Below, piece after piece: positions 23,020 through 61,589 of a stretch of DNA of 64,000 nt (its first letter is position 1; each line of letters begins with the position of its first letter). Below the pieces are notes generated by a model. That model was not told where the DNA came from. It did no database searches and worked only from the letters and a program-made list of their open reading frames with translations. The position numbers were made by a program, and so were the translations under genes. The DNA comes from Shigella phage SSP1: sequence record KY963424; one strand, given 5' to 3'.

Positions 23020-23049
23020 TCTCCTTTGCACGCTTTCGTGCCTTCTAAA

Positions 23050-23095: not shown

Positions 23096-23101
23096 ACCAG
23101 A

Positions 23102-23869
23102 TTATTCAGCAGCCGCAGCTTTTGCATCCAGTTTAGCACGCTTAGCGGCACCATCATAGTCCTTAGCAACCAGACCACGACGAGACAGCATAGATTTAAC
23201 ACCACGCTCAGACTTACCAGTTTTCTCAGCGATCTCAGCAACAGTCATGTTAACCAGATCCAGACCTTCTAACAGATCTTCACGAGTTTTAGCACTTGAA
23301 GTTTCCTGTACCGGCATAGCAGCGATACGACCTTCACGAAGCAGGCTCAGAGCTTTACCACGGATCTGCTTAATATTGCGGCCGAAGTGAGCAGCGATAG
23401 CTTCAATAGTAGCACCAGCAACAACCTGATTAACAAAATCAGTTTCTTCATCCGGAGTGAAGGAACGAACAGCAGCAGCTTTTTCAGTTGGCTTAACAGA
23501 AGCGGTCATTTCCAGGCTCAGAATCTTACCCTGTACCTGCTTAGCACCGAACTGACCACCAGCTACAGCAGCAGCGATTTCAGCATAGGTATACTGACCA
23601 GCATGAGCGTTCAGGAAATCAACCAGTTCAGCTTCCTGCTCAGGAGTCCACGGGGATTTCTGTACTTCGTTAGCTTTCTGTACTTCAAAACCTTCTTTAC
23701 GCAGTTTAGAGCCAACAGAGCGAGCAGTAACGTCTTTGCCAGTTTCAGCAGCCAGTTCAGTAGCGATAGCAGCTACTTGTTCTTGAGAGATTACAGCAAC
23801 ACCCAGAGCAGTGGCTTTTGCTTTCAGAGACTCGGTTACACCTTCTACGTTCCAGTTCAGTTTAGACAT
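23102..23869 (-). CDS. Ala-rich hypothetical protein with internal repeats and C-terminal HTH-like segment
   Basis: 255 aa; visibly higher GC and host-like codons (CTG, CGT, GCA) than neighbours; repeated ...EIAAAV/IEAIAAHF...; TVAEIAEKTGKSERGVKSMLSRRGL resembles an HTH. Confidence 0.6.
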   Translation of the reverse strand: MSKLNWNVEGVTESLKAKATALGVAVISQEQVAAIATELAAETGKDVTARSVGSKLRKEGFEVQKANEVQKSPWTPEQEAELVDFLNAHAGQYTYAEIAAAVAGGQFGAKQVQGKILSLEMTASVKPTEKAAAVRSFTPDEETDFVNQVVAGATIEAIAAHFGRNIKQIRGKALSLLREGRIAAMPVQETSSAKTREDLLEGLDLVNMTVAEIAEKTGKSERGVKSMLSRRGLVAKDYDGAAKRAKLDAKAAAAE

Positions 23870-28529: not shown

Positions 28530-31293
28530 CTAGCTCTGCCATTGCTTCATCATGCATATGTTTCTCCTCGTCAGTCATAAACTTATATGGGATTGGCATA
28601 CACTCGATTTTACAATAAGTTCTGTACCAGTCTACAATATTCTCCGTATTCATATCCTTACCAATACCCATCATACCAAGATACATTCTCGCATATTTTG
28701 GGTTAGCACTCTGACCTGTTTTAAGGAAGAAATCTTTCTTTTTACCTTTCAGAGCTTCTATGAATGGTTTGATAGTGACATTTGAACACTTCTTAATATC
28801 TTCCCAGAACATCTCGTGCATTTTATGGAAAAATGCCGCTCGATCATTCGGTTTATCCTTGATATATTGTTCAACATGCTCAACTGTTACATCTTTAATA
28901 GACTCAAGATGATAGTAGCGAACAAGAAGTAGTTTAGCTTCATACGCATCTGCATGGCGTGGAGCACAATAATCAGGAGTTGAATACAAAATAGCTTTGA
29001 TTCGCTCTTCCGTATATTCCTTCCCAGCACCTTCGATAGTTCCCCAGCTTTCACTGAAAATATCAATAGTTGCACCCTGATCAAGCAAGTAATAACGTAA
29101 AGTACTAGTATAGTTCCTAGATTCCAGCTCCCTACGACGTGCGTATAATTGCTGTGCTAACTCCAGCCAACCTTCATCAATGTTATATTGCTCAGAACCT
29201 GCGGAGAATCCACTCGTAGATTTATCAATAAAATAATAAATGTTCTGAGCGCCACGGTCGCGCCTGATTGCTTGAAAACGCATGTTTGGCGCTTGGTTGC
29301 TGGTTCTAGTAATAACGAATACGTTATCAAAATAGTTGAAGTCAACACCACTAGTTACTGATGGACTACATAATAAGCAATCAATTTGTTGGTCAATTAG
29401 CTCATTAGTTGTGTAATCCAGAATACGTCTAATATCTACATCAGACGTAGAGTTTGAGTGGATTTCCTTAACTAACGCACCCGTATTACGACGCAACGCC
29501 ATGCCCTTCTCATTCAGTTCATCTGGACCACAGTCAGATACTAGGATAGATTTCTCACCCATCTCTAGAGAAGTCTGAAGTGCAACCCAAATACTGGATT
29601 CATCAGGGAACTCATAAGCATGAGCTTTTGACAGCATTTTACGGTGGTGATTATAAAATGCAACCGGTTTATCAAAATCAATTAGAGAACCGTAGGCTTC
29701 AATAGTCTCAGCACTAATATCACCATCGGATAAGATTACAGTTTTAGCTGTCATGAGGATGTCACGTAGAACTTGAATACACTCGCGACGTTGTTTAACA
29801 ACTGGGGCGAATAATAGATCATTCATTACAGCGTCACATTCATCAATAAAGATGGTGTCTATTTGACCAATAAAACTTTTGAACTTATGCAAAGAGTGAA
29901 TAGTTGTGGACATACGATCAATAGCTCCACGTTTAAAGTTGAGCATATCTACAGACTTATCATATTGTCCTGCGCTAAATTTCTTAGCGTTTGAAGATAC
30001 CAGCGCTCTAGTATTTGTAACTGCTAAAAAGTTGCCAGGAAGAACCCCTGCGTCCAGCCATTTAGTTACTGCCGTAGTTTTACCAGTACCAAGACTTGCC
30101 TTAACAAATGTTATATGGCCCTTTGGGGGCACAATGTTAATCTTCAGGTATGGAACTTCTGGTGGAGAATCCACTTCTAATTTCTTGAGTGGAACACCCT
30201 TCAGATTTAATGGAATCTCACGTTTAGAATTATTAACAAACGCTTTGAGAGCCTGCTTACGACCGTTATTAAAGTAATCTTGAATATTACGACTGTTATC
30301 TTTAGTTGCAATATATTCAGATAAAGCGGGTTTAATCTCACGTTCTAGCCATGCGAAATCAACACCATCCTCTAATGCTCTATGGTATAGTTTGGGGATA
30401 ATACGCAAGTACACCCCATCATCAGCTTCTTCCAATTCGCTGATGGTTTCTTCTACTTTATCAGAAGCAATCTTTTTGCCTTTAATTTGATCAAGTAAAG
30501 AATAAAACTCTTCCTTAAACTCCCCTCTAGTTGTTTCATAGTCAACCAGATTATTAGGCAAATTTACCTTCGAACCTTTAACATACACCAGACGTGGCTT
30601 ACTCTCCGCTTTAAACGGATCAACAATACCATCGCTAAATAAAGGGTCGGCAAAATAGTGAAGCTGGACAGATGAATAATAAGCTAAGTCGGCAATATCA
30701 AAACCGAATTTTTGCTTACTACTATCATTGATAGACGTAAATAGGAACTTTAACTGACCTTGAGTTACCTTGACGTTAGATTCTAGCATTAAGTGCATTC
30801 GGATACCTGGTTTTAGGCCAGCCGAAGACGATGCATGAGCAATAAACCCTGCATCAAGAGGAAACATGTCCTCACTAATACTATTCAACATCTTAATAAT
30901 GTGGCGGGCCATACCTACAAGATTAAACTTGTCGTACCCACCGGTATCTATGATACCATCCACGTCCATAGCAATAATATTGCTAGGGTTGGATACATTA
31001 AAGTTACCTTTCTTACGTCGCACATTATTTTTAGGTGCAAGACATCGACCTCGTACCGCAACGATATGAGGGTCAGACGTTAAACGTCTCATAAGTGGTA
31101 ACATTTCGGCAAGGCTTTGCGGGTCATGCTCTTCTATTACATCAAATTTGAAGGGCATAGAAGCTGGTTTACCTTCTGGATGCTCTTTCGAGAATCGTTT
31201 GGCAAAGGTATAATCTTCCGCTTTGATTTCTCGCCAAATACCTGTTGCTAAATCACGAGAAAATCCGGCGTGACCTTGGAGGATAGAAAACAC
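28504..31293 (-). CDS. Putative replication-origin-binding protein / SF2 ATPase (UL9-like)
   Basis: 929 aa; Walker A VKASLGTGKTT, Walker B/DExD IFIDECD; large N-terminal domain. Confidence 0.65.
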   Translation of the reverse strand: MFSILQGHAGFSRDLATGIWREIKAEDYTFAKRFSKEHPEGKPASMPFKFDVIEEHDPQSLAEMLPLMRRLTSDPHIVAVRGRCLAPKNNVRRKKGNFNVSNPSNIIAMDVDGIIDTGGYDKFNLVGMARHIIKMLNSISEDMFPLDAGFIAHASSSAGLKPGIRMHLMLESNVKVTQGQLKFLFTSINDSSKQKFGFDIADLAYYSSVQLHYFADPLFSDGIVDPFKAESKPRLVYVKGSKVNLPNNLVDYETTRGEFKEEFYSLLDQIKGKKIASDKVEETISELEEADDGVYLRIIPKLYHRALEDGVDFAWLEREIKPALSEYIATKDNSRNIQDYFNNGRKQALKAFVNNSKREIPLNLKGVPLKKLEVDSPPEVPYLKINIVPPKGHITFVKASLGTGKTTAVTKWLDAGVLPGNFLAVTNTRALVSSNAKKFSAGQYDKSVDMLNFKRGAIDRMSTTIHSLHKFKSFIGQIDTIFIDECDAVMNDLLFAPVVKQRRECIQVLRDILMTAKTVILSDGDISAETIEAYGSLIDFDKPVAFYNHHRKMLSKAHAYEFPDESSIWVALQTSLEMGEKSILVSDCGPDELNEKGMALRRNTGALVKEIHSNSTSDVDIRRILDYTTNELIDQQIDCLLCSPSVTSGVDFNYFDNVFVITRTSNQAPNMRFQAIRRDRGAQNIYYFIDKSTSGFSAGSEQYNIDEGWLELAQQLYARRRELESRNYTSTLRYYLLDQGATIDIFSESWGTIEGAGKEYTEERIKAILYSTPDYCAPRHADAYEAKLLLVRYYHLESIKDVTVEHVEQYIKDKPNDRAAFFHKMHEMFWEDIKKCSNVTIKPFIEALKGKKKDFFLKTGQSANPKYARMYLGMMGIGKDMNTENIVDWYRTYCKIECMPIPYKFMTDEEKHMHDEAMAELGARNDSEE

Positions 31294-31790
31294 AACAATA
31301 CTCCTGTATTGATTAATCGAAATCTTTTCTTTAGGACTATTCAGAAAGAATAGAACAACTATTACTACTATTTACGTAAACATCAATTATCATCAAACAA
31401 TATGAATAAGTTATCATATCTCAGTGCTGTGCTCTCTTCGCTCATATACAGAATAGAACCTAGGTCATTGGCCGCTAAGCCGATTCTATTTGTCCTCACT
31501 ATCCTATTGGTAGGTGACTACTGTACGTGCCGCCATTCGCTGCTCTTTTCGTTCGCACCCCCATATAAAGCTCTGCCTATATAACGAGCTAAATATGCAC
31601 GGTTTGGATTTACCTTTCCGAATTCAGGGTACACAGATCACTTAATTGAAGATTAACTAATGCAATATAAACACTAGTAATAGTTAAAACAACCCTTAAT
31701 GGGGCAGCCTAACTGTTCCGTATCGCGGATTGTAAACAAGAAAAATTAGCAAAATCAATTTTTACTAATGTCTCTCAATTCAATATAAAT

Positions 31791-31819
31791 ATTATATCAA
31801 GATTTTGGGCATCCTGCAA
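31791..31819 (-). promoter_or_regulatory. Early promoter (TTGCAG-17-TATAAT)
   Basis: Reverse complement TTTTACTTGCAGGATGCCCAAAATCTTGATATAAT; followed by about 480 nt leader before the 929-aa gene. Confidence 0.5.
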
Positions 31820-31913
31820 GTAAAATTTTCCGGATGGTGCTATCATTGGTCTTGAGTACGGGTAAAACCGAGCCAAAATGACTCGGTAATCAGAGTTCAG
31901 CCAATAAAAATCA

Positions 31914-32303
31914 TTAGTCATTTAATCCCGGAACATAGATCCCAACACGGTTTAATTGTTCTTTAGCTTCTTTGAGAATATCTGGAGTGTACTCCCAAAT
32001 ATCATCTTCCACCTGTAAAAGATGGGGCGAACAACCGTCATCCGGCACACGGCATATGGCCAAACCACGTGGGTGGAACAAAGAGAAATTTAGGGCAACA
32101 ATTAAACCCATAGCAGACAATTCATTCCAATCCAATTCCCATTCCCCCGCGTAGCCGGATAGGAAAACACCAACACAGGGATCATCTATTTGCTGCTCCG
32201 GAAAAGTGAAGGAGGCTTGTCTTACCCCCAACCAACGTTGTAGCAGCTTCTCCGCACGTTTCACCAAACTAGGATCAATCTGACGCCAATATACTTGTTC
32301 CAT
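31914..32303 (-). CDS. Hypothetical protein, paralog A (129 aa)
   Basis: Shares ...GxxExxxxELxxMGLxxALNxxLF...VPGL(N/T) architecture with adjacent ORF. Confidence 0.55.
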   Translation of the reverse strand: MEQVYWRQIDPSLVKRAEKLLQRWLGVRQASFTFPEQQIDDPCVGVFLSGYAGEWELDWNELSAMGLIVALNFSLFHPRGLAICRVPDDGCSPHLLQVEDDIWEYTPDILKEAKEQLNRVGIYVPGLND

Positions 32304-32312
32304 TGTGCCCCC

Positions 32313-32741
32313 TTAGGCAGTTAAACCTGGGATCATATACCCGAAACGTCGAAGTTTCTGAATCCCCTCATTTACTTCTTCCGGTGAGTAAGACCAACCA
32401 TAACGTTCATTAACCTGAAAACCAGGAGATTCACTAGTTTTATAGTTAACAACGAGGCGATGCTTAGCAGGCATAAACAGCTTATAGTTTAACGCAAAAA
32501 CTAAGCCCATTTCATCTAACTCTTTCCAGCCGACAATCTCTTCAAGACCCTCCTCTACCTGAACAATTAAACCAATACAGGGAGCCTCATCAATATCATC
32601 TTTAAAAGCAAAGGAGATTTCGTTATTCTCACACCATATTTTCAAAGAGTTAATAGCCTCATTATACAGGCTAGCTGGGAGAGTACGCCAAAAGTTAACC
32701 AAAATTGGATTAGCTTCTTTAGAGAATACATTATTGAACAT
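32313..32741 (-). CDS. Hypothetical protein, paralog B (142 aa)
   Basis: Tandem paralog of 31914..32303. Confidence 0.55.
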   Translation of the reverse strand: MFNNVFSKEANPILVNFWRTLPASLYNEAINSLKIWCENNEISFAFKDDIDEAPCIGLIVQVEEGLEEIVGWKELDEMGLVFALNYKLFMPAKHRLVVNYKTSESPGFQVNERYGWSYSPEEVNEGIQKLRRFGYMIPGLTA

Positions 32742-32743
32742 AT

Positions 32744-33256
32744 TTACACCTTAAATTGTTGTAGGGCTTTACACATTTCAAGATCTGGACTAAATTCTAA
32801 CATATAGCTAACAGCTCTTAAATCTTGAAGATTTATCCCAGTTCTACCATTGACTATAACTGTTGGATACTGATACATCATAGCACCGGCATCATCCAGC
32901 ACACACCAATGTTTGAGCCTATGCTTTTCAACGAAGCGAAGAACAGAATTACCCCTAGATAATCCACCCCCAGTAAAATCCGTTGTACCAAGAAAACGAT
33001 CGATAAGGCCTAATCCGGTCATAATCTGAACGTTCTCCATCTCATTTCTGACAGAGAACCAAGATGATACTCCAACAATCATTATCGGAGAAGGACGAAT
33101 AAAGTCCTGAAAAGCCTTGAGAAGCGGTTTGAAAACCCAGTCACTTCCAAAGAAAATCTTTTCATCATCAGGTGCATGATGGTGGGAGATGCTCGAATTG
33201 AGCACCCCATCAATGTCTAGAAAAATAATTGGAATATTACTTATTTCCTGACACAT
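32744..33256 (-). CDS. HAD-superfamily hydrolase (putative nucleotidase/phosphatase)
   Basis: N-terminal IIFLDIDGVL HAD motif I (DxDGx). Confidence 0.6.
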   Translation of the reverse strand: MCQEISNIPIIFLDIDGVLNSSISHHHAPDDEKIFFGSDWVFKPLLKAFQDFIRPSPIMIVGVSSWFSVRNEMENVQIMTGLGLIDRFLGTTDFTGGGLSRGNSVLRFVEKHRLKHWCVLDDAGAMMYQYPTVIVNGRTGINLQDLRAVSYMLEFSPDLEMCKALQQFKV

Positions 33257-34052
33257 AAGGTCTACCCCCTAAATGAGCTTCTACACGAGCAATAAAATCA
33301 GTATCACTGAAAGCATCTACCGCACCTTTACTCCAGTAAGGGATACCGCGTTCTTCCAGCTGGTACATCTCACTACGAGTCATACCTTGATAGCTCGGTT
33401 CCGCCGCTAGTACACTATCATAGTAGTTAACAACCATAAGTTTCGCAGCAGTCAAATTAAGAACAGGAAATAATTCCCAATAGAAGTTAATTACTTGGTT
33501 AGAGCAACCAACCACAATGATCATATCTTGACTAGTAATACCATCAAAAACATTATACATTTCTGCATACGCTGGAGCATGCTCCCCAAAGAAGACTACA
33601 TTAGGTTTAACCCATTTATAATCATCTGGGTCAATAGAATTGTATCCTACATCAATAATCCGTTTATTGCTACTATTGTAGCTATCAGCTACAACAACCT
33701 CTTTTAAATATCCGTGAATGTGCAGAATGTCACTATGTGGAACGCCAGCACGCTCAATAAGGTCATCAACGTTGGTAGTCAAGTTTACTACTTGACCTGG
33801 GTATTGTTTATACCATTCACCAATACGCAAATGCGCAAGATTGGGTTCAACAGTTTTTAGCTCTTCACGACGCTTGTTGTAAAACATATGGGTTTTATGG
33901 TAAAAATTACCACGAAAGGCATGAATATTACACACTTCTTCTAGATCATAATCATCCCACAATGCTTTACCACTAGCAGTATCAGTACGAAAAGCTCGTA
34001 CACCACTTTCAACACTCAAACCTGCACCGCTAATAATAATTAACCTACGCAC
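33237..34052 (-). CDS. SIR2-family (sirtuin-like) NAD-dependent enzyme
   Basis: LIIISGAGLSVESGVRAFR Rossmann/NAD-binding sirtuin signature; 271 aa. Confidence 0.65.
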   Translation of the reverse strand: MRRLIIISGAGLSVESGVRAFRTDTASGKALWDDYDLEEVCNIHAFRGNFYHKTHMFYNKRREELKTVEPNLAHLRIGEWYKQYPGQVVNLTTNVDDLIERAGVPHSDILHIHGYLKEVVVADSYNSSNKRIIDVGYNSIDPDDYKWVKPNVVFFGEHAPAYAEMYNVFDGITSQDMIIVVGCSNQVINFYWELFPVLNLTAAKLMVVNYYDSVLAAEPSYQGMTRSEMYQLEERGIPYWSKGAVDAFSDTDFIARVEAHLGGRPYVSGNK

Positions 34053-34246
34053 TATACGATTCCTCGCTTAAATCCTTCGATAATATTTCGGAGTAAAATT
34101 GCTTCCTCCGGGCGTACCTTTTCTTGCTTAATAAGCATATCCAATCCAGCAATACAACTAGCTACACCAGCATTATAACCAGAGTTCCATTGCTCAATAA
34201 GCATGTTTTCTAGATTACTTTTTAGACTCTGATTCAAGAAGTCCAT
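34052..34246 (-). CDS. Hypothetical protein (64 aa)
   Basis: Small ORF. Confidence 0.35.
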   Translation of the reverse strand: MDFLNQSLKSNLENMLIEQWNSGYNAGVASCIAGLDMLIKQEKVRPEEAILLRNIIEGFKRGIV

Positions 34247-34418
34247 AAAGTTTCTCCTCTAGTTCCATAACACGATTTTCATAAGAAGCACGCAACTTTT
34301 CAATTGCCAGCGCACGCACTGTAACCTCATTAGAATTAATAGCTAACTGGGCCAGGTCTTCTGTTTCCATACGTCCGTTGTAAATTAAGCGATATTTAAG
34401 ATGTTTTACGTTTTTCAT
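34215..34418 (-). CDS. Hypothetical protein (67 aa)
   Basis: Small ORF. Confidence 0.35.
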   Translation of the reverse strand: MKNVKHLKYRLIYNGRMETEDLAQLAINSNEVTVRALAIEKLRASYENRVMELEEKLYGLLESESKK

Positions 34419-34427
34419 TCTTGTTCC

Positions 34428-34709
34428 TTAGTTCTGTACTGTAAACTCATTCTTATCACAGTGAGCATAATAATACCCATACATACGATAAATTTTCACA
34501 GCCTTAGTAGACCCCTTCGATTCTTCATAATCAATCCAGAGCCACTTGTCTTTACCTACATAATGTACCCGAAACTTCTTAACTTTCTTATCATTCCATG
34601 TTGCAACAACACGACGATAATCAAATCCACCCAACCAATCTAGAGCCTTACGTTCTTCACTAGGCTCTCCAAGATGGGAGACATCTACTTTAGGAAGCAA
34701 CTCGCTCAT
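34428..34709 (-). CDS. Hypothetical protein (93 aa)
   Basis: ORF downstream of early promoter at 34738..34766. Confidence 0.45.
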   Translation of the reverse strand: MSELLPKVDVSHLGEPSEERKALDWLGGFDYRRVVATWNDKKVKKFRVHYVGKDKWLWIDYEESKGSTKAVKIYRMYGYYYAHCDKNEFTVQN

Positions 34710-34737
34710 AGCTTTCTCCTCTCAAATTTATAAATCA

Positions 34738-34766
34738 ATTATACATAAATTTTTGGCTGAAAGCAA
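34738..34766 (-). promoter_or_regulatory. T5-type early promoter (TTGCTT-17-TATAAT + ATAAATTTGAGAGGAG box)
   Basis: Reverse complement TTTATTTGCTTTCAGCCAAAAATTTATGTATAATTGATTTATAAATTTGAGAGGAG. Confidence 0.65.
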
Positions 34767-34808
34767 ATAAAATAAAAGCCAGGTCGACTAGCAACCCGGC
34801 TGATTAGC

Positions 34809-36683
34809 TTATTTAGCTCGAATATCCTGATGTTTCACTCTGCCCATAACCTCGTGCTGTTTGCCGGGGTTAAATGGACGAGCACCCGGATTTCCAAGAT
34901 ACCCACAAACTCGACGAGTTACCTCAAGAGTTTCGGGGTCATGATTACCACAGATAGGGCACTTAAATCCATCTTCGGATGCTATTGTTTCACCTAAGAA
35001 TCCACATTTACCGCAAGAATCCACTGGAGTATTAATACCGAAGTAATGAACTTTACTAGCAGCATAATTAATAACCCATTCCAGTGCATCTGGGAATCGT
35101 TTCATATCTGGTAGTTCTACATAGGAAATGCACCCACCAGAAGCAATCGGAGTGAAATTAGATTCATAATCAAATTTCACGTTAGGAGCAACTTTACGTT
35201 CTACATCAAGGTGGTGAGAGTTAGTGTAGTATCCTTTGGACAGAATATCTTCATGCTCCGGGAAATATTCGCGGTCTAGACGACAAAAACGGTCACATAG
35301 GGATTCTGATGGTGTAGCATACAGGCTATAACCTAATTTAGTTTCTTCCTTCTTCTGATCGACTCTATCCCGCATGTACTGCAATACACGCTGAACAAAC
35401 TTGATGCAGGTCTCGGACATTGTGTCTACATCTTTGCCAAACATAAACTGTAGCATTTCATGGCAACCAATATACCCTAGAGATACAGAAGCACGGTTAT
35501 AGAAATGATCGAATACATACTCATCCGGCTCCAAGCGTAACCCAAAGGCTCCTGACATATAGAGGATGGGTGCAGCTTTAGCTTGAATGTATTTTAAGCG
35601 ATCAACTCTCCACTCCAATGCTTTTAACGCTGTATCCACACGTAGCTCAAGCAAATCAAAGAATAGATCAATATTTCCTTCAGCTTCGATAGCAATTCTA
35701 GGCAAGTTTACAGAAACAACACCTAAGTTATTACGACCGGCAGTTTCACCATCTTCTGTAGCAGCTAGGAATGAACGGCAGCCCATAGAAACTTTATAGT
35801 CACCAGTAACTTCCACAACCTTATCATAGCTGATATAATCTGGATACATACGTTCAGCAGTACATTTCATAGCTAACTTCTTGATGTCATAATTAACATC
35901 TCCTGGTTTCATATTTACGCCATCACGAAGTACAAATACCAGTTTCGGGAAGATAGCTGTACGTTTATTGATACCTAAACCATCCATGCGTACTTTCAGT
36001 ATTGCTTTCTGTACTAGACGTGCTTCCCAAGAAGTTCCTAGACCAAAACCAAAGGTAATAAATGGACTCTGCCCATTAGAGTTGAACATGGTATTGATTT
36101 CATATTCTAAACCCTGACAAGCGTCATAGACTTCTTTTTCAGTCATCTCCGTAGCCATTACGGATGCTTTGGCTTCATCCTTAGTCCAACGTTTTGCAAA
36201 CGCATGATTTTTGTCATAGGATTTACGAACATAAGGGGCTAATACTTCATCAAGGCGATCTACAGAAGTACCACCATACTGATGGGAGCTAACCTGAGTG
36301 ATAATCTGAGCAGTAATAGCCGCCGCAGTAGTGATAGAGTTTGGAGTGCTAATTTCAGCATTACCAACCTTCATGCCATTCTTCAACATATCTTCCAGGG
36401 CCACCAGACAACAGTTAGTCATGCCTAATGCAGCATAATCAGCATCATGGAAATGAATATCCCCAATCATATGAGCATTTCGAATCTGAATTGGCATTTC
36501 TTCTAGAATTAGATACTTACTCAACTCACCTGCAAGCATATCCCTTTGTGTAGGGAAACGTTCTGAGGGTTTATTGGCATTATTAAATAGCAGTTCTTCA
36601 TCTGCTGACCCTTCGATAATCTCTTTGCAGTTTCTAATTAACGCCTGCATTTCTTTATACTTTAGTTCTTCATTACGATTCAT
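34809..36683 (-). CDS. nrdD: Anaerobic ribonucleoside-triphosphate reductase (class III)
   Basis: 624 aa; C-terminal glycyl-radical motif RVCGYLG and Cys4 zinc site CGKCGF...CPICG. Confidence 0.9.
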   Translation of the reverse strand: MNRNEELKYKEMQALIRNCKEIIEGSADEELLFNNANKPSERFPTQRDMLAGELSKYLILEEMPIQIRNAHMIGDIHFHDADYAALGMTNCCLVALEDMLKNGMKVGNAEISTPNSITTAAAITAQIITQVSSHQYGGTSVDRLDEVLAPYVRKSYDKNHAFAKRWTKDEAKASVMATEMTEKEVYDACQGLEYEINTMFNSNGQSPFITFGFGLGTSWEARLVQKAILKVRMDGLGINKRTAIFPKLVFVLRDGVNMKPGDVNYDIKKLAMKCTAERMYPDYISYDKVVEVTGDYKVSMGCRSFLAATEDGETAGRNNLGVVSVNLPRIAIEAEGNIDLFFDLLELRVDTALKALEWRVDRLKYIQAKAAPILYMSGAFGLRLEPDEYVFDHFYNRASVSLGYIGCHEMLQFMFGKDVDTMSETCIKFVQRVLQYMRDRVDQKKEETKLGYSLYATPSESLCDRFCRLDREYFPEHEDILSKGYYTNSHHLDVERKVAPNVKFDYESNFTPIASGGCISYVELPDMKRFPDALEWVINYAASKVHYFGINTPVDSCGKCGFLGETIASEDGFKCPICGNHDPETLEVTRRVCGYLGNPGARPFNPGKQHEVMGRVKHQDIRAK

Positions 36684-36712
36684 TACACCCTCCTTCTCTA
36701 ACTAAGACTACT

Positions 36713-36741
36713 ATTATAACTCATTCGAGGGCGGATGTCAA
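36713..36741 (-). promoter_or_regulatory. Consensus sigma70-like promoter for nrdD (TTGACA-17-TATAAT)
   Basis: Reverse complement TTGACATCCGCCCTCGAATGAGTTATAAT. Confidence 0.6.
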
Positions 36742-36876
36742 TATAATTTTTCTCTTAGATATCGTATTTTGATCTGTGCTAAGAAACTTGATCAGAGTGT
36801 CAAAATTTTATTGACACCACCGTAACTTTTGTATAAGATATACACATAATTTAAGAAATTTGACAAGGAAATAAAA

Positions 36877-37368
36877 ATGAACACTGAAATAACACAAGAC
36901 CTACTAAGAACTTACTTTGACTATAAAGATGGAGAATTGTTTTACAAACCAACTTATAAAACCCCTGCAGGAAGAATATCCAAAAAAGCAGGTAAATCCG
37001 CCAGACTAACTCCGAGTAACGGGTACTATCGTATAAATGTACCAAGAATAGGTGTACAGAAAGAACATAGGATGATTTTCCTATATCATGAAGGATACCT
37101 ACCAGAAGTAGTAGATCATATTGATAGGGATAAGGAAAATAATAGGATAGAGAACCTTAGGGCATCTAATCTTCAGGACAACGCTATTAATCGCTCCATA
37201 AGTAAGAGTAACACCTCTGGCATTGTGGGTGTCCATTATGATGAATCGTATGGTAAGTGGGTTGTAACGTATAGGGGTAAGTACTTTGGAAGATTTGATA
37301 CCAAAGAAGAAGCTGCCGAAGTTAATGCTAATGTTCGTGCCCTTGATCAAACCCGTATAAATAGTTGA
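36877..37368 (+). CDS. HNH homing endonuclease with AP2 DNA-binding domain
   Basis: VDHIDRDKENNRIENLRASNLQDNAIN (HNH) followed by GVHYDESYGKWVVTYRGKYFGRFDTKEEAA (AP2-like). Confidence 0.75.
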   Translation: MNTEITQDLLRTYFDYKDGELFYKPTYKTPAGRISKKAGKSARLTPSNGYYRINVPRIGVQKEHRMIFLYHEGYLPEVVDHIDRDKENNRIENLRASNLQDNAINRSISKSNTSGIVGVHYDESYGKWVVTYRGKYFGRFDTKEEAAEVNANVRALDQTRINS

Positions 37369-37451
37369 TTATCTAGTATCACACATCTCCCGTTAAAAGC
37401 AAGCAAATTTTTTATTTAAATGCAATATCATAGGCTTATTTAAAATTGTAG

Positions 37452-37480
37452 TTGCTTTTTACTGTATATATTGGTATAAT
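37452..37480 (+). promoter_or_regulatory. T5-type early promoter (TTGCTT-17-TATAAT)
   Basis: AAAATTGTAGTTGCTTTTTACTGTATATATTGGTATAAT. Confidence 0.6.
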
Positions 37481-37553
37481 ATATTTGTAAGTTGATAAAC
37501 AAGATCTTTTTGTTGATCCTCTGTTAGCGAAGTACACTATAGGAGTGTTATTT

Positions 37554-38306
37554 ATGGGAAAAGCACGTCAAAAAAGAGAGAACCGCAATGGTTCAAGAAA
37601 GCGTGGCAACAAATATGAGAACAACGTAATTCAGGCTGATTTTTCTAATGATTACGCTAATCCAGTTGCTAAATCCCTAGTAGGTAAAAACCGCGAGCAA
37701 AAATCATATATCAATATGATCAAGAACAACACAGTGACTGTGGGTATCGGTGAGCCAGGTACTGGTAAAACCTTTATTCCGTCCGTTCTTGCAGCTCAGG
37801 AACTCGTAGACATTCACTCAGATATTGAGCAAGTGATCCTCGTACGTCCTAATGAACCTCTAGGTAAGTCTCTTGGTATGCTTCCTGGTGATCTAGCGGA
37901 AAAGCTAGAGCCTTGGTTAGAGCCAATAGCTGATGGTATGAAATGGGCCATCGGCGATCATGCGTATAAAGGATATGTCGAACGTCAGAAAATTAAATTT
38001 TTGGCTGTCGAACATGCTCGTGGCAGAACTTTCAACAACTCCTATGTAATTGTCGATGAAGCTCAGAATATTTCCGTTGAGGCAATGATTTGTCTCCTAA
38101 CTCGTGTAGGACAAGACTGCCGTTTAATTATCTGCGGAGATATAGCTCAGAAAGACATTAAAGGTGACTCAGGTCTAGCACTCCTTATGGAAGTCTATGA
38201 AAAATACGAAAATGCCCCATTCTCAATGATCGAATTGATTGATAACGTTCGTTCTGTTGAGTCTAAAGCATTCTATGATATTTTTAAAGACATGGGGAAG
38301 GTGTAA
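37554..38306 (+). CDS. phoH: PhoH-like ATPase
   Basis: Walker A GEPGTGKT, Walker B VIVDEAQN; ATG with AGGAG RBS (ORF track starts at GTG 37545). Confidence 0.8.
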   Translation: MGKARQKRENRNGSRKRGNKYENNVIQADFSNDYANPVAKSLVGKNREQKSYINMIKNNTVTVGIGEPGTGKTFIPSVLAAQELVDIHSDIEQVILVRPNEPLGKSLGMLPGDLAEKLEPWLEPIADGMKWAIGDHAYKGYVERQKIKFLAVEHARGRTFNNSYVIVDEAQNISVEAMICLLTRVGQDCRLIICGDIAQKDIKGDSGLALLMEVYEKYENAPFSMIELIDNVRSVESKAFYDIFKDMGKV

Positions 38307-38307
38307 T

Positions 38308-38550
38308 ATGGGAAACGTCGTTCATCTGAGCCGTAAAACTAAAATACATCGTACTTCACTGAGTGCTGCTAATATGATTACACGTAAGGAAGGGGAAGAA
38401 AGTCCTAAGACAACCCTAGCGTGGAAAATTGTAACCTCAAATCCAAATAAACCATTCAATTATAACGAGTTGAGCACCTCCATAGATATTCTATTAAAAG
38501 AGGCAGCTAGAGCTAAAGTAATTGAACAAGCTAAAAAGCTAGACTGGTAA
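38308..38550 (+). CDS. Hypothetical protein (80 aa)
   Basis: ATG with GGGGAAGG RBS immediately after phoH stop. Confidence 0.45.
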   Translation: MGNVVHLSRKTKIHRTSLSAANMITRKEGEESPKTTLAWKIVTSNPNKPFNYNELSTSIDILLKEAARAKVIEQAKKLDW

Positions 38551-38671
38551 TATACAGGGCCTGGGTATGAAAATACTCGGGCCTTTTCTATCAGAAAATT
38601 TTATTTGCCTAATGACCGATAATAAAGTAGAATATTCCTTAAATCCTGATAACTATAAAAAGGAAAGCCAA

Positions 38672-55384: not shown

Positions 55385-55462
55385 GGTTCTCAAGCTCATA
55401 TGGTATGAGCACCCGGCTCATAACCGGAAGGTACGTAGGTTCGAATCCTCGGGGAGCCACCA
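55385..55462 (+). tRNA. tRNA with CAT anticodon (Met or Ile2)
   Basis: Acceptor GGTTCTC/GGGAGCC (with G-U pairs), D-stem GCTC/GAGC, anticodon loop CTCATAA, T-loop TTCGAAT with imperfect stem, CCA encoded. Confidence 0.6.
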
Positions 55463-59002: not shown

Positions 59003-59188
59003 ATGTCCAAGAATGTAATTGCACAGTTAGAAGTTCATCGTGATAGCACTATCAACAATATTGAAGTTGAGAAGAAATACATAGAAGAACTTAAACACGA
59101 TATACTAGTAAGTCTCAATCGTCTTAATGTACGAAAAGAGTTTCTTAAAGAACTTAATGCAGCTATTGAAAAACTCAAAGCTGAGTAA
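59003..59188 (+). CDS. Hypothetical coiled-coil protein (61 aa)
   Basis: GAGGAAACAAGCATG RBS. Confidence 0.45.
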   Translation: MSKNVIAQLEVHRDSTINNIEVEKKYIEELKHDILVSLNRLNVRKEFLKELNAAIEKLKAE

Positions 59189-59195: not shown

Positions 59196-59777
59196 ATGCA
59201 CGGAATATTTTTACCTATTCCTATGTTTGATGAATATCTGGTAAGTCTAGATGGGTTAGTGTTCAGTATTAAATCAAATAAAATACTAACCCCAATAACT
59301 AGTAATTATGGATATGTATCTGTACGCCTACATCATAACGGTAGGCAAAGAAATACTGGTATACATAGAATCATAGCATGTGCCTTTAAAAGGTTACCTA
59401 GTTTAGACTCTGTACTAGAGGTTGATCATATTGATACAGATATCACCTATTGGGGATTAAATAATCTACAAGTCCTTACTAAAGAACAGCATTTAGAAAA
59501 AACCCTGAAAGATAAGGGCTATAATAAACTAATACATAATAAACAGTGTAGTATATGTGGTGAACCTATATCACTGAAAGCAGATAAGTGTCAAAAATGC
59601 TCATCACATAAACTGAAAGATCCATCTATTACTAAAGAAATAATAGAATCTACTGTAAAAGAGTTAGGATGGTCTGGTGCTGGAAGAAGATTATCTTATT
59701 CTGATAACGGGTTAAGAAAACGTTATAAAGCATTAGGTGGTGATCCAAAAGAATTAAAAAAGTTAAAGGTACTATAG
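59196..59777 (+). CDS. HNH homing endonuclease (NUMOD4-like N-terminus + HNH)
   Basis: IHRIIACAF...EVDHIDTDITYWGLNNLQVLTKEQHLEKT HNH core; paralog of 62914..63474 with shared C-terminal SGAGRRLSYSDNGLRKRYKALGG; stop overlaps tRNA-Asp. Confidence 0.7.
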   Translation: MHGIFLPIPMFDEYLVSLDGLVFSIKSNKILTPITSNYGYVSVRLHHNGRQRNTGIHRIIACAFKRLPSLDSVLEVDHIDTDITYWGLNNLQVLTKEQHLEKTLKDKGYNKLIHNKQCSICGEPISLKADKCQKCSSHKLKDPSITKEIIESTVKELGWSGAGRRLSYSDNGLRKRYKALGGDPKELKKLKVL

Positions 59778-59842
59778 TCTAACGGTTAGGATACTCCCCT
59801 GTCACGGGAGAGGTAGGGTTTCGATTACCCTTAGTACCGCCA
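59768..59842 (+). tRNA. tRNA-Asp(GTC)
   Basis: Acceptor GGTACTA/TAGTACC perfect, anticodon arm CTCCC-CTGTCAC-GGGAG, T-arm AGGGT-TTCGATT-ACCCT, CCA encoded. Confidence 0.8.
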
Positions 59843-59868
59843 AACTAAACTAGCACGAGAAATATGCT

Positions 59869-60216
59869 ATGATTAATGCTAAAGAAGAATTGTTACTTGC
59901 CCTAAAGAATATTAATTCTGAAGTTAAGTGTATTAAGATAGAATTCGGTTATTATGGGGACAAAGAAGTTTGGGTATTACCCATAGGTTATACAGAAAAA
60001 GATATTGAAGATTTTCTAAATAATCTAGACTTTAAATATGATTCTGGTTTCGGTGGACAATTGCTTTATGGTAACGTATGGTTTACTGATGGAACTTGGT
60101 TAGAACGTGGTGAATATGATGGTTCTGAATGGTGGGAATATAAGACTACACCGGCAATCCCAGAAGAATGCCGAACAATTAATGGTGAAGTAGATAATAC
60201 TTTACGGTTAAACTAA
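59869..60216 (+). CDS. Hypothetical protein (115 aa)
   Basis: ORF with Trp/Gly-rich C-terminus. Confidence 0.5.
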   Translation: MINAKEELLLALKNINSEVKCIKIEFGYYGDKEVWVLPIGYTEKDIEDFLNNLDFKYDSGFGGQLLYGNVWFTDGTWLERGEYDGSEWWEYKTTPAIPEECRTINGEVDNTLRLN

Positions 60217-60220
60217 TAAA

Positions 60221-60329
60221 ATTTCAGTGCAGAACACGGAGCTAGCAATTCGGAAGTGCTGACTCATGATAAGCTGCCTATGTACTTGCTAAGCGGTCGT
60301 GTCCAAGACTCGGACTCTTGCACTGAAAA
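60221..60329 (+). ncRNA. Structured RNA candidate closed by about 11-bp terminal stem
   Basis: TTTCAGTGCAG (60222-60232) is complementary to CTTGCACTGAAA (60317-60328); internal hairpin GTCC-AAGACTC-GGAC; no ORF. Confidence 0.35.
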
Positions 60330-60338
60330 CAATCAAAC

Positions 60339-60459
60339 ATTCTAGCGTGGTTGATGGAGAAACCAGCTTGGCGAGGGCAGAAGCTCGTTCGATTCGAGTG
60401 AAAGAATGGTTCTCGTAAGTCCGCACAAGTGATAACAGGTTCGAGTCCTGTCTAGAATG
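60339..60459 (+). ncRNA. 121-nt tRNA-like RNA (perfect acceptor stem + canonical T-arm, oversized body)
   Basis: 5' ATTCTAG pairs with 3' CTAGAAT; T-arm ACAGG-TTCGAGT-CCTGT; second internal T-arm-like hairpin GCTCG-TTCGATT-CGAGT; no CCA encoded. Confidence 0.4.
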
Positions 60460-60469
60460 ACACTATAAA

Positions 60470-60592
60470 GTTTACTTATTATGTAGGTTCCGATAGATCG
60501 GCGGGTCTATTCTGGCATTTAAGAGAGGTCTCGCAAACTTCTTTGTCAGCCGTGGGGTTCATAGCCTCCAGGTGGCCTACACAATAAGTAAA
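60470..60592 (+). ncRNA. Structured RNA candidate closed by 14-bp terminal stem
   Basis: ACTTATTATGTAGG (60474-60487) pairs with CCTACACAATAAGT (60576-60589) with one mismatch; internal palindromes; no ORF. Confidence 0.35.
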
Positions 60593-60608
60593 TTTATTAA
60601 AAATTCAT

Positions 60609-60638
60609 TTGCTATTCTGCTTTATTATCTGTATAATA
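60609..60638 (+). promoter_or_regulatory. T5-type early promoter (TTGCTA-18-TATAAT)
   Basis: AAAAATTCATTTGCTATTCTGCTTTATTATCTGTATAAT. Confidence 0.6.
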
Positions 60639-60669
60639 TATTTTATAAAGTGAAGAGAAGGAAAGCTAA

Positions 60670-60867
60670 ATGAAGAAAGTTTTATTACTATCTGTATTCC
60701 TACTTACTGGTTGTTTTAAATTTGACTCAACCATTAATAAAGAGTATGAATTTGCTAAAAATTTCTGTGGCGGAGAGAGTAATATAAAGAATTTCTACAT
60801 ATATAGTACAATTCCTAGTACCGTTTATTGTGTAGACGGACGAATTATTAATATTCCTCCACAATAA
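60670..60867 (+). CDS. Small lipoprotein (65 aa)
   Basis: MKKVLLLSVFLLTGC lipoprotein signal peptide with lipobox LTGC; GAGAAGGAAAGCTAAATG RBS. Confidence 0.55.
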   Translation: MKKVLLLSVFLLTGCFKFDSTINKEYEFAKNFCGGESNIKNFYIYSTIPSTVYCVDGRIINIPPQ

Positions 60868-60876
60868 AAGAATTAA

Positions 60877-60952
60877 CAGTGCGTAGCGCAGTTGGTAGCG
60901 TGGGAGCCTTGGATGCTTCGGGTCGCAGGTTCGAGTCCTGCCGCACTGACCA
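60877..60952 (+). tRNA. tRNA-Pro(TGG)
   Basis: Acceptor CAGTGCG/CGCACTG perfect, D-stem GCGC/GCGT, anticodon arm GGAGC-CTTGGAT-GCTTC, T-arm GCAGG-TTCGAGT-CCTGC, CCA encoded. Confidence 0.8.
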
Positions 60953-60958
60953 AACAAT

Positions 60959-61036
60959 TGCGGGTTAGATCTCTGGTAGAGATCACTAGTCTCATAAGCT
61001 AGAAAGAGGTAGGTTCGATTCCTGCACCCGCTTCCA
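60959..61036 (+). tRNA. tRNA with CAT anticodon (second Met/Ile2-type), unpaired 1-72
   Basis: D-stem GATC/GATC, anticodon arm CTAGT-CTCATAA-GCTAG, T-arm GTAGG-TTCGATT-CCTGC, CCA encoded; acceptor TGCGGGT/ACCCGCT with T-T at 1-72. Confidence 0.6.
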
Positions 61037-61056
61037 TTTTAATAGAGGATTTCGAA

Positions 61057-61224
61057 ATGAAAGTATTTCGATTAGTAGTAAGTGACAAACGTTCAGGTAA
61101 AAATACCTCAAAATCCTTACTCGCTCATTATGGTAAAAATTGGGATGAAGTAATGTCAGAGTTTAATACTAATCACCCTTACTTGAAAGTTCACTCTATT
61201 AAAGAAGTATATAATGGTTACTAA
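61057..61224 (+). CDS. Hypothetical small protein (55 aa)
   Basis: TAGAGGATTTCGAAATG RBS; below ORF-track cut-off. Confidence 0.35.
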   Translation: MKVFRLVVSDKRSGKNTSKSLLAHYGKNWDEVMSEFNTNHPYLKVHSIKEVYNGY

Positions 61225-61225
61225 T

Positions 61226-61304
61226 AGATCGCTAGCTCAATAGGTTTAGTAGCATCCGACTTTTAATCGGAAGGTTCTGGGTTCGAGTCCCAGGCGATCT
61301 ACCA
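61226..61304 (+). tRNA. tRNA-Lys(TTT)
   Basis: Acceptor AGATCGC/GCGATCT perfect, anticodon arm TCCGA-CTTTTAA-TCGGA, T-arm CTGGG-TTCGAGT-CCCAG, CCA encoded. Confidence 0.8.
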
Positions 61305-61323
61305 ATTTCAAGAAAAATGTACT

Positions 61324-61351
61324 TGCTTGATGCTTAATTTCTTGTTATAAT
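61324..61351 (+). promoter_or_regulatory. T5-type early promoter (TTGCTT-16-TATAAT)
   Basis: AAAAATGTACTTGCTTGATGCTTAATTTCTTGTTATAAT + ATATAAATTGATGGGGAG. Confidence 0.55.
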
Positions 61352-61589
61352 ATTTATATAAATTGATGGGGAGAAATCCTCATCATAGTTCACTAAGGTA
61401 TTAGCTCGACCTAGGACTGGCTGCCAAAAAGCACGATCCCTACGATTCGGGAGAAGTTCTAGATTAGTCCACTAGATTCAGTGGCAACTGAGTAGTGTAT
61501 CGGGTTTGCGAGATGACGCGGTTCCTTCCGCTTGAAGCGAAGGTGCTGTAGTTACGCCGAGCTAATAGCCTTAGTAAACTAAAGAATTT

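What the first reader, a model, noticed from the sequence alone, without database searches (positions are those of the whole stretch)
60670..60867. Small early-expressed lipoprotein: possible superinfection-exclusion or receptor-masking factor
The 65-aa ORF has a textbook lipobox (LLTGC) and sits behind a strong early promoter, isolated inside the tRNA cluster. T5-type phages are known to make a small lipoprotein that blocks their own receptor; this could be an additional or alternative exclusion lipoprotein.
Basis: inference. Interest (0 to 1): 0.4.

Follow-up and report, generated by a model that had tools for sequence, protein, structure and literature searches.

The report
Early phage lipoprotein, mislabelled spanin
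This is a real, conserved 65-residue lipoprotein gene that some T5-like phages carry as an optional cassette between an early promoter and a tRNA gene; it is neither the phage's receptor-blocking Llp nor the lysis 'spanin' that databases call it, and what it does in the cell envelope is still untested.

Summary
Window 60670-60867 (+) encodes a 65-aa prolipoprotein (MKKVLLLSVFLLTG|C, Phe at +2) with a good ribosome-binding site. It lies behind the homologue of T5's annotated promoter P13a and 9 nt upstream of tRNA-Pro. The gene is under purifying selection (dN/dS about 0.1) and belongs to a small phage-only family (phrog_6073; 38 clusters at 50% identity), found in T5-like siphoviruses and Seunavirus myoviruses.

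The database label 'Rz-like spanin' is wrong. Carrier genomes already have a curated i-/o-spanin pair elsewhere, no i-spanin partner lies nearby, and some family members lack an outer-membrane signal.

It is also not an Llp/Cor homologue. There is no sequence or fold similarity beyond the signal peptide, and it is not next to the receptor-binding gene. It co-occurs freely with FhuA-type, BtuB-type and a third type of cognate blocker, so it is additional to Llp and not tied to the phage's own receptor.

The gene is a 214-bp cassette in a polymorphic slot: empty, this ORF, or the unrelated two-TM T5.066.

Best reading (inferred, untested): an accessory early protein tethered to the outer membrane and facing the periplasm, acting on the envelope, probably in exclusion or competition. 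Interest is modest.

The parts
60338..60583 (+). Homologues of the T5 stable RNAs rna2 and rnaIV (coordinates approximate); conserved left border of the slot
   Evidence: Placed by gap-free alignment to T5 NC_005859, where misc_RNA rna2 and rnaIV are annotated. Not detected by Rfam or ARAGORN. This flank plus the promoter is present in about 370 phage records.
60609..60637 (+). Promoter, homologue of T5 early promoter P13a: -35 TTGCTA (60609-60614), 17-nt spacer, -10 TATAAT (60632-60637)
   Evidence: Scan gives 10 of 12 matches. Aligns with the T5 feature 'promoter P13a'. Boxes and spacing are kept in Erwinia phage KEY. Activity was not measured here.
60654..60867 (+). 214-bp inserted cassette (ribosome-binding site plus ORF) relative to the 'empty' genomes
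   Evidence: In Kenya-K18 and EscoHU1 the promoter region continues as GTGA-GTTAAC-AAAAATTAACAG into tRNA-Pro. The window carries the cassette in place of GTTAAC.
60658..60662 (+). Shine-Dalgarno sequence AAGGA, 7 nt before the ATG
   Evidence: Read from the sequence. The same SD and first codons, AGAGAAGGAAAGCTAA[A/G]TGAAG, precede the unrelated T5.066 gene in T5.
60670..60867 (+). Coding sequence of the 65-aa prolipoprotein (stop codon included)
   Evidence: ORF list; phrog_6073 match at E 5.5e-29; dN/dS 0.08-0.13; family of 38 cluster representatives.
60670..60714 (+). Signal peptide (residues 1-14) plus the lipobox Cys15 codon (60712-60714); lipobox L-T-G-C, Phe at +2
   Evidence: Read from the sequence. 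Lipobox census of the family. Outer-membrane sorting is inferred from the enterobacterial +2 rule (established knowledge), not tested.
60715..60864 (+). Mature periplasmic domain after the lipid Cys15: short tether, one helix (to residue 33), three-stranded sheet; conserved Cys33 (60766-60768) and Cys54 (60829-60831)
   Evidence: AlphaFold2 model: pLDDT 87-98 over residues 21-60, H16-33, E39-43, E50-54, E59-62. Cys33 and Cys54 are the only invariant columns in the 34-sequence alignment. The helix is nearly invariant and the sheet and loops are hypervariable among T5-like copies. The disulfide is inferred.
60877..61036 (+). tRNA-Pro(UGG) and tRNA-Met(CAU), the downstream genes of the same promoter; no terminator between the ORF and the tRNAs
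   Evidence: ARAGORN and Rfam. No terminator-like site on the + strand in 59800-61400. Co-transcription and processing of the 3' end by RNase P are inferred.

Best explanation
Shown: this is a genuine accessory gene of virulent enterobacterial phages. A 214-bp cassette (ribosome-binding site plus ORF) sits between the T5-type early promoter P13a and the first tRNA of a tRNA operon. It encodes a prolipoprotein with a lipobox (Cys15) and a non-Asp +2 residue. Its 50-residue mature part is predicted to be one conserved helix packed on a three-stranded sheet, carrying two invariant Cys. Inferred: it is made early, acylated, and sorted by Lol to the inner leaflet of the outer membrane. There the disulfide-stapled mini-domain hangs a few nanometres into the periplasm. 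Most likely function (inferred, untested): it binds an envelope component or an incoming phage's penetration machinery from the periplasmic side. This would change the infected cell's envelope so as to exclude or out-compete other phages, or protect the cell from damage by later-adsorbing particles. It does this independently of the phage's own terminal receptor, which is covered by a separate cognate Llp-type blocker. It is not a spanin.
For: Real, selected gene. Promoter and SD homologous to T5 P13a, with cassette boundaries defined against empty-slot genomes. Always directly upstream of tRNA-Pro in Tequintavirus, Epseptimavirus, and the Enterobacter and Erwinia T5-like phages. Lipobox with C-F-K in every T5-like copy. 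Confident small alpha/beta fold. Only the two mature-domain Cys are invariant, which fits an oxidised periplasmic protein. Accessory: present in about 69 of the roughly 370 records that share the flank; the slot is otherwise empty or holds a small two-TM protein. The corresponding T5 region is deletable (T5Mos deletion 30661-38625, PMC11464382). Only found in virulent phages and in arrays of small early-type genes; none found in 185,579 species genomes at the sensitivity of the pattern used. Carriers have a separate cognate receptor blocker of three different types. Conserved helix but hypervariable sheet and loops among close homologues (up to 8 residue types per site), as expected for a surface in an arms race. 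Precedent for early small envelope proteins of virulent phages acting in exclusion: T5 Llp (PMC9586334); T4 Imm and Spackle (my own knowledge).
Against: There is no positive evidence of any exclusion activity, partner or target. No fold or sequence relative has a known function. Anchoring is not conserved across the wider family: 12 of 53 members have Asp at +2 and 4 have no lipobox. An outer-membrane-proximal site of action therefore cannot hold for all members, although the hosts of most of those variants are unknown. Expression timing and promoter strength were not measured. The variable surface could also reflect relaxed constraint.
Confidence: 0.4

Rival explanations
1. It is the outer-membrane subunit (o-spanin, Rz1-like) of a two-component spanin that disrupts the outer membrane at lysis, as the PHROG/RefSeq label 'Rz-like spanin' says.
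For: It matches phrog_6073, annotated 'Rz-like spanin', and many records carry that product name. It is a small lipoprotein with periplasmic Cys residues, like o-spanins.
Against: T5 and a phage encoding an identical copy both have a canonical overlapped pair near the holin and endolysin: an i-spanin with N-terminal TMD and coiled coil, and an o-spanin with an ITGC lipobox. The curated spanin census places the pairs of SPC35 (22433-23161) and PVP-SE1 (60594-61283) elsewhere than the homologues SPC35_0058 (31491-31688) and gp211 (130942-131154) (PMC6139136 Additional file 5). No i-spanin-like gene is embedded, overlapping or adjacent in the window, KEY, PVP-SE1 or three metagenomic loci, and the neighbours are unrelated to one another. 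It sits behind an early-type promoter in a tRNA operon. The family includes Asp+2 and non-lipoprotein members. hhalign against the T5-type o-spanin gives probability 6.5%.
Confidence: 0.03
2. It is an Llp/Cor-type blocker that jams the phage's own terminal receptor (FhuA, BtuB or FepA) from the periplasmic side, as a second or alternative copy of Llp.
For: It has the same general format as Llp: a small lipoprotein of a T5-like phage with an outer-membrane-type sorting signal, two Cys in the mature part, and an early-type promoter.
Against: Similarity to Llp and to the Cor PHROG is confined to the signal peptide. There is no structural match to 8a60_B or 7qjf_A, which are present in the PDB copy. 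It is not in the adjacent, divergent RBP/blocker module that is inherited as a unit. It occurs with T5-Llp-type, SPC35/BtuB-type and a 69%-identity variant blocker, and each of those types is common without it. Homologues exist in Seunavirus myoviruses.
Confidence: 0.07
3. It masks a different outer-membrane protein, not the carrier's own receptor, so as to exclude heterologous phages or colicins. This is an Llp-like mechanism with a new fold and a new target.
For: Outer-membrane-type anchor with a short tether in all T5-like copies. Independent of the carrier's own receptor type. Shared by two unrelated phage groups that infect the same enterobacterial hosts. Hypervariable surface.
Against: No candidate target is known. 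Family members with Asp+2 or a transmembrane anchor, tethered by only 13-21 residues, could not reach the outer membrane. This largely overlaps the best explanation and cannot be separated from it in silico.
Confidence: 0.2
4. It regulates lysis from the periplasm, for example as an antiholin or as an inhibitor of a peptidoglycan hydrolase that sets lysis timing.
For: It is a periplasmic, membrane-tethered small protein. T5-like phages have T4-like lysis genes: a holin with a single TMD and PseT.2/PseT.3-like spanins. In T4 a small periplasmic protein (RI) controls the holin (my own knowledge). Tolerance of different anchors would suit a periplasmic target.
Against: It is not linked to lysis genes in any of the contexts seen. 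It is absent from most T5-like phages that have the same lysis cassette. An outer-membrane tether with a short linker is badly placed to reach a holin domain at the inner membrane. There is no similarity to any known antiholin or inhibitor.
Confidence: 0.1

Closest known systems
T5 Llp (lytic conversion lipoprotein) and the Cor family of superinfection-exclusion lipoproteins (phrog_1119; PDB 8a60_B, 7qjf_A)
   Same: Small lipoprotein (about 50-60 mature residues) of a virulent T5-like phage, with an outer-membrane-type sorting signal, two Cys in the mature domain and an early-type promoter.
   Different: No sequence similarity beyond the signal peptide. No fold match. Encoded in the tRNA operon about 76 kb from the RBP gene by T5 coordinates, not adjacent and divergent to it. 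Assorts independently of receptor type and coexists with the cognate blocker. Also present in myoviruses.
o-spanins (lambda Rz1, T4 PseT.2, T5.044)
   Same: Small phage lipoprotein with periplasmic cysteines, and the name databases give it.
   Different: No i-spanin partner and not in a lysis context. The genome has its own curated pair. The domain is predicted to be well folded. Family members exist without an outer-membrane signal.
T4 Spackle (gp61.3) and Imm, early envelope proteins of a virulent phage that exclude superinfecting phages (comparison from my own knowledge)
   Same: Small, early, non-essential, periplasm- or membrane-located products encoded among arrays of small accessory genes. 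The contexts of distant family members look like such arrays, with T4 Y00F-like, DenV-like and GIY-YIG neighbours.
   Different: No homology or fold match found among solved structures. Spackle is a soluble periplasmic protein and Imm an inner-membrane protein, whereas this one is a lipoprotein. Function untested.
T5.066 (phrog_18174), the alternative occupant of the same slot in T5
   Same: Same position between P13a and tRNA-Pro, the same SD and first codons, small and membrane-targeted.
   Different: Unrelated sequence: 52 aa with two transmembrane segments and no lipobox. Function also unknown.

Membership tests
Bacterial lipoprotein (signal peptidase II substrate) | Positively charged n-region, hydrophobic h-region, and a lipobox [LVI][ASTVI][GAS]C within about 20 residues of the start | tested here: met
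   MKK-VLLLSVFL-LTGC, Cys15; 49 of 53 family sequences have a lipobox.
Bacterial lipoprotein (signal peptidase II substrate) | Diacylglyceryl modification, globomycin-sensitive cleavage, and Lol-dependent sorting to the outer membrane | not testable with these tools
   Outer-membrane sorting is inferred from Phe at +2 using the enterobacterial +2 rule (established knowledge).
o-spanin of a two-component spanin (Rz1 / PseT.2 type) | Outer-membrane lipoprotein signal, conserved in the family | tested here: not met
   Present in this copy, but 12 of 53 family members have Asp at +2 and 4 have no lipobox.
o-spanin of a two-component spanin (Rz1 / PseT.2 type) | Cognate i-spanin gene (N-terminal TMD plus periplasmic coiled coil) embedded, overlapping or adjacent | tested here: not met
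   None in the window, KEY, PVP-SE1 or three metagenomic loci; the neighbours are mutually unrelated and have no annotated function.
o-spanin of a two-component spanin (Rz1 / PseT.2 type) | Is the spanin assigned to that genome by curated analysis, with the genome otherwise lacking one | tested here: not met
   Curated pairs of SPC35 and PVP-SE1 lie elsewhere (PMC6139136 supplement). T5.044/T5.045 and their homologues are present in a carrier genome.
o-spanin of a two-component spanin (Rz1 / PseT.2 type) | Complements an Rz1-defective lysis phenotype | not testable with these tools
   Requires an experiment.
Llp / Cor superinfection-exclusion lipoproteins | Sequence homology of the mature domain to Llp/Cor | tested here: not met
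   hhalign aligns only 21 signal-peptide columns. phrog_1119 matches cover residues 1-24 only. No Pfam or NCBIfam hit.
Llp / Cor superinfection-exclusion lipoproteins | Fold like Llp (8a60_B, 7qjf_A) | tested here: not met
Llp / Cor superinfection-exclusion lipoproteins | Gene adjacent to and divergent from the receptor-binding protein gene, and inherited with it | tested here: not met
   T5 llp and SPC35_0144 lie beside their RBP genes. This ORF is in the tRNA operon and assorts independently of blocker type.
Llp / Cor superinfection-exclusion lipoproteins | Intramolecular disulfide in the mature lipoprotein | tested here: inconclusive
   Two invariant Cys make a disulfide likely. The model coordinates could not be inspected and the redox state is unknown.
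Llp / Cor superinfection-exclusion lipoproteins | Blocks adsorption by inactivating the receptor | not testable with these tools
   Requires adsorption and plating assays.
phrog_6073 (sequence family, whatever its label) | Significant full-length HMM match | tested here: met
   E 5.5e-29 over residues 1-63; 33 of 34 aligned relatives match it.

The most novel reading that the evidence does not exclude
The family is a previously unrecognised class of receptor-independent exclusion factor. It would be a disulfide-stapled mini-domain tethered in the periplasm, shared by unrelated virulent enterobacterial phages (T5-like siphoviruses and rV5-like Seunavirus myoviruses). It would neutralise a conserved envelope component, or the periplasmic penetration machinery of competing phages, using its invariant helix, while its hypervariable sheet face evolves in an arms race.
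Probability: 0.2. Interest if true: 0.55.

Novelty: new variant of a known kind. Interest (0 to 1): 0.3.

Why it matters
1. It corrects an annotation error that is spreading. phrog_6073, and through it Pharokka and RefSeq, call this protein an 'Rz-like spanin', which gives dozens of T5-like and Seunavirus genomes a spurious third spanin.

2. T5-like and rV5-like phages are widely used in Salmonella and E. coli O157 biocontrol cocktails. An optional early envelope protein that might exclude other phages bears on cocktail design, and it is cheap to test because the gene is only about 200 bp.

3. The promoter-to-tRNA slot has three states: empty, lipoprotein, or two-TM protein. The two unrelated cassettes share one ribosome-binding site. 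This is a tidy natural example of cassette exchange of small membrane proteins in a virulent phage, and a possible insertion site for engineered payloads.

Tried and rejected
- **Upstream 33-aa ORF (60572-60673):** annotated in one relative, considered as a partner and rejected. It spans the -35 and -10 boxes, has no SD, and is replaced by an unrelated Cys-rich 35-aa ORF in phage KEY.
- **Conserved neighbour or partner gene:** none found across the window, KEY, PVP-SE1, L007, L008 and L010.
- **Sequence searches of solved structures:** the family profile gives only signal-peptide-level noise.
- **Pfam and NCBIfam:** nothing beyond signal-peptide hits.
- **The search for related loci:** With A2 it found nothing in bacterial genomes and only the known isolates in IMG/VR.
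- **Hosts of the Asp+2 and TM-anchored variants:** tblastn against isolated phages found only the already known T5-like and Seunavirus copies, so those variants come from metagenomes of unknown host and the '+2 rule' argument is only partly usable.
- **Linkage between the lipoprotein and the window-type tRNA-Pro:** rejected, because both tRNA-Pro types occur with an empty slot.
- **Cys33-Cys54 distance in the model:** could not be checked because coordinates are not exposed.

Full report
**1. The observation**

The ORF is present exactly as described: 60670-60867 on the + strand, ATG start, 65 codons. The N-terminus, MKK-VLLLSVFL-LTGC, is a classical prolipoprotein signal with Cys15 in the lipobox and Phe at +2. 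An AAGGA Shine-Dalgarno site lies 7 nt upstream. The best sigma-70-like site in the neighbourhood, TTGCTA-17-TATAAT at 60609-60637, scores 10 of 12. Such sites are not enriched in this AT-rich stretch (4 found against 4.8 expected), so the match alone is weak evidence. The ORF lies between tRNA-Asp (59768-59842) and tRNA-Pro (60877-60952), and the latter starts 9 nt after the stop codon.

**2. Where we are and how the locus is built**

The window is the early/tRNA region of a T5-like phage (Markadamsvirinae). The 1-kb neighbourhood is 97-98% identical to many Salmonella and Escherichia Tequintavirus genomes. The + strand here corresponds to the minus strand of T5 NC_005859.

In T5 the same position carries the annotated promoter P13a, followed by T5.066, a 52-aa protein with two transmembrane segments, and then tRNA-Pro. 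Window and T5 DNA are almost identical through the stable-RNA genes, the promoter, the SD and the first two codons. They are then unrelated until the tRNA.

Kenya-K18 and EscoHU1 have no ORF at all. Their promoter region continues GTGA-GTTAAC-AAAAATTAACAG into tRNA-Pro. The lipoprotein gene is therefore a 214-bp cassette (60654-60867) in a three-state slot.

The left flank is in about 370 phage records. The lipoprotein is in 81 records, about 69 of them T5-like, and a T5.066-type gene is in 113. In every T5-like copy examined (Tequintavirus, Epseptimavirus, Enterobacter phage KKP_3711, Erwinia phage KEY) the gene sits directly upstream of tRNA-Pro. The -35 and -10 boxes and their spacing are kept in KEY although the flanks have diverged. 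There is no terminator between the ORF and the tRNAs, so the ORF is presumably the 5' cistron of a tRNA-operon transcript (inference).

**3. It is a real gene**

Pairs of T5-like copies with unsaturated synonymous sites give dN/dS of 0.08-0.13. In more distant pairs synonymous sites are saturated while dN stays at 0.12-0.24. A profile search of 1.8 billion cluster representatives finds 38 hits, nearly all 61-90 aa. In a 34-sequence alignment the only invariant columns are Cys33 and Cys54 of the mature domain. Phe32, Arg58 and Pro63 are nearly invariant, within the motifs [FY]xWAxxFCG and CxDGRxxxIP.

**4. The protein**

AlphaFold2 gives a confident small alpha/beta domain, with pLDDT 87-98 over residues 21-60: a helix to residue 33, then strands 39-43, 50-54 and 59-62. 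The two invariant Cys lie at the end of the helix and at the end of strand 2. An intramolecular disulfide in the periplasm is the natural reading, but this is inferred.

The tether from the lipid Cys to the first core Cys is 13-21 residues across the family. Among 14 distinct T5-like sequences the tether and helix are almost invariant (1.5 residue types per site). Positions 37-48, 55 and 59-60 are hypervariable, with up to 8 types at one site.

**5. The 'Rz-like spanin' label is wrong**

The ORF matches phrog_6073, annotated 'Rz-like spanin', and RefSeq and Pharokka records repeat the name. Several results contradict it:
- T5 has T5.044/T5.045 (PseT.2/PseT.3-like) near its holin and endolysin.
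- SaI_NFG_5581, which encodes an identical 65-aa protein, has the same overlapped pair: a 149-aa i-spanin with an N-terminal TMD and coiled coil, and a 117-aa o-spanin with an ITGC lipobox.
- The curated census of Kongari et al. lists the spanins of SPC35 at 22433-23161 and of PVP-SE1 at 60594-61283 (PMC6139136 Additional file 5). The homologues of our ORF are SPC35_0058 at 31491-31688 and gp211 at 130942-131154.
- No i-spanin-like neighbour exists in any context, and the neighbours are mutually unrelated.
- 16 of 53 family members lack an outer-membrane-type signal.
- hhalign against the T5-type o-spanin is negative.

**6. It is not an Llp/Cor homologue and is not tied to the phage's receptor**

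- Profile comparison with T5 Llp aligns only the signal peptide, and the weak hits of some members to the Cor PHROG cover residues 1-24 only.
- Llp-type blockers lie beside and divergent from the RBP gene, a hallmark arrangement inherited as a unit (PMC8624392; PMC9586334). This ORF lies about 76 kb away by T5 coordinates.
- By tblastn it co-occurs with three blocker types, and all three are frequent without it:
  - the T5/FhuA-type Llp (HK6, FFH_1, SP15, slur09, SUT_E520);
  - the SPC35/BtuB-type blocker (SPC35, phA11, EC148, T5_ev212, PH204, NBSal005, MM-1);
  - a variant about 69% identical to the SPC35 type (Ace).

The protein is therefore additional to Llp, not an alternative to it, and it is very unlikely to mask the carrier's own terminal receptor.

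**7. Distribution and context**

- Among isolated phages the family occurs only in Markadamsvirinae and in Seunavirus myoviruses such as PVP-SE1, SSE121 and the Cronobacter phages.
- Distant metagenomic members sit in long same-strand arrays of small unannotated genes of large virulent phages, with T4 Y00F-like, DenV-like, GIY-YIG and SIR2 neighbours. None lies beside lysis or tail genes.
- No relative was found in representative genomes of 185,579 bacterial and archaeal species, at the sensitivity of the pattern used.
- The tRNA region of T5, including this slot, is deletable: T5Mos carries the viable deletion 30661-38625 (PMC11464382).
- Anchoring varies. Of 53 sequences, 37 have a lipobox with a non-Asp +2 residue (all T5-like copies read C-F-K), 12 have Asp at +2 (including the Salmonella Seunavirus NINP13076, CDIG), and 4 have a hydrophobic N-terminus without a lipobox.

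**8. How it most likely works**

Shown: a selected, accessory, secreted lipoprotein gene behind the homologue of an annotated early promoter.

Inferred: early synthesis, acylation, Lol sorting to the inner leaflet of the outer membrane, and a disulfide-stapled domain held within a few nanometres of that membrane.

Best guess (confidence about 0.4): an envelope-acting accessory factor of the exclusion or competition type. It would bind a host envelope component or an incoming phage's penetration machinery from the periplasmic side, independently of the carrier's own receptor. The points in favour:
- its format and timing;
- its optional, cassette-like distribution, alternating with another small membrane protein;
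- its restriction to virulent phages;
- its coexistence with a dedicated receptor blocker;
- its conserved-helix, variable-sheet pattern.

Against: there is no positive functional evidence and no informative relative, and anchoring is not conserved across the wider family.

Rivals:
- blocker of a heterologous outer-membrane protein (0.2; overlaps the best guess);
- periplasmic lysis regulator (0.1);
- Llp-type blocker of the carrier's own receptor (0.07);
- o-spanin (0.03).

**9. Novelty and value**

The kind of thing, a small early envelope lipoprotein of a virulent phage, is known. This family has a different fold, a different genomic logic and no characterised member, so I rate it a new variant of a known kind and of modest interest (0.3). 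The concrete gains are:
- correction of a propagating mis-annotation;
- exclusion of the Llp-like reading;
- a precise definition of the cassette and slot;
- a short list of cheap, decisive experiments.

Noticed in passing
window 60590-60880; L005 18594-18832; L013; L014: The stretch between promoter P13a and tRNA-Pro is a three-state polymorphic slot in T5-like phages: empty, the 65-aa lipoprotein, or the T5.066-type 52-aa two-TM protein. The two unrelated cassettes share the same SD and first codons (AGAGAAGGAAAGCTAA[A/G]TGAAG), which suggests exchange by recombination within the translation-initiation region.
   Followed up: yes
window 60877-60952 compared with L005 18513-18589 and L013 904-980: Two clearly different tRNA-Pro(UGG) sequences circulate in T5-like phages: the window/Kenya-K18/KEY type and the T5/EscoHU1 type. 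They assort independently of what occupies the upstream slot.
   Followed up: partly
window about 60338-60583: Homologues of the T5 'stable RNAs of unknown function' rna2 (tRNA-like) and rnaIV lie just upstream of the promoter and are highly conserved (about 370 records). Neither Rfam nor ARAGORN recognises them, and several spurious ORFs (for example 60299-60418) overlap them.
   Followed up: no
window 55385-55459: Rfam calls a tRNA here (40.3 bits) that ARAGORN does not report. By position it corresponds to the second tRNA next to tRNA-Ser(GCU), as with T5 tRNA-Ile2(CAU).
   Followed up: no
window 59196-59777: A 193-aa ORF with sub-threshold NUMOD4 and HNH_3 matches (probably a homing endonuclease) lies between the DUF7337 gene (59003-59188) and tRNA-Asp, and overlaps the tRNA start by 10 nt. 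SPC35 and SaI_NFG_5581 lack it at this position.
   Followed up: partly
L004 2897-3004 (Erwinia phage KEY): In phage KEY a 35-aa Cys-rich ORF (CxxC...CxxC, zinc-ribbon-like; no PHROG match) is inserted between the conserved promoter and the lipoprotein gene, and overlaps its start by 4 nt.
   Followed up: no
phage records, hits H72/H73 (Klebsiella phage KPP2018) and H80 (Salmonella phage KKP_3831): In these records the tblastn match to the lipoprotein is split into two pieces. This may indicate a frameshift or pseudogene copy, or a sequencing error.
   Followed up: no
L003 4225-4872 (PVP-SE1 gp210) and 3630-4004 (gp212): The Seunavirus homologue gp211 is flanked by a Cys-rich 124-aa protein (4-nt overlap) and by a 215-aa protein with two TM segments and a C-terminal coiled-coil-like tail. 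Both belong to PHROGs of unknown function, and whether they work together with gp211 is unknown.
   Followed up: partly
T5 record NC_005859 and several RefSeq re-annotations: Automated product names in these records are unreliable. T5.036 (a 246-nt gene) is called 'major head protein', Llp is called 'lysozyme' in the EC100 group, and tiny ORFs are called 'tail protein'. The 'Rz-like spanin' label on phrog_6073 is one more case.
   Followed up: partly
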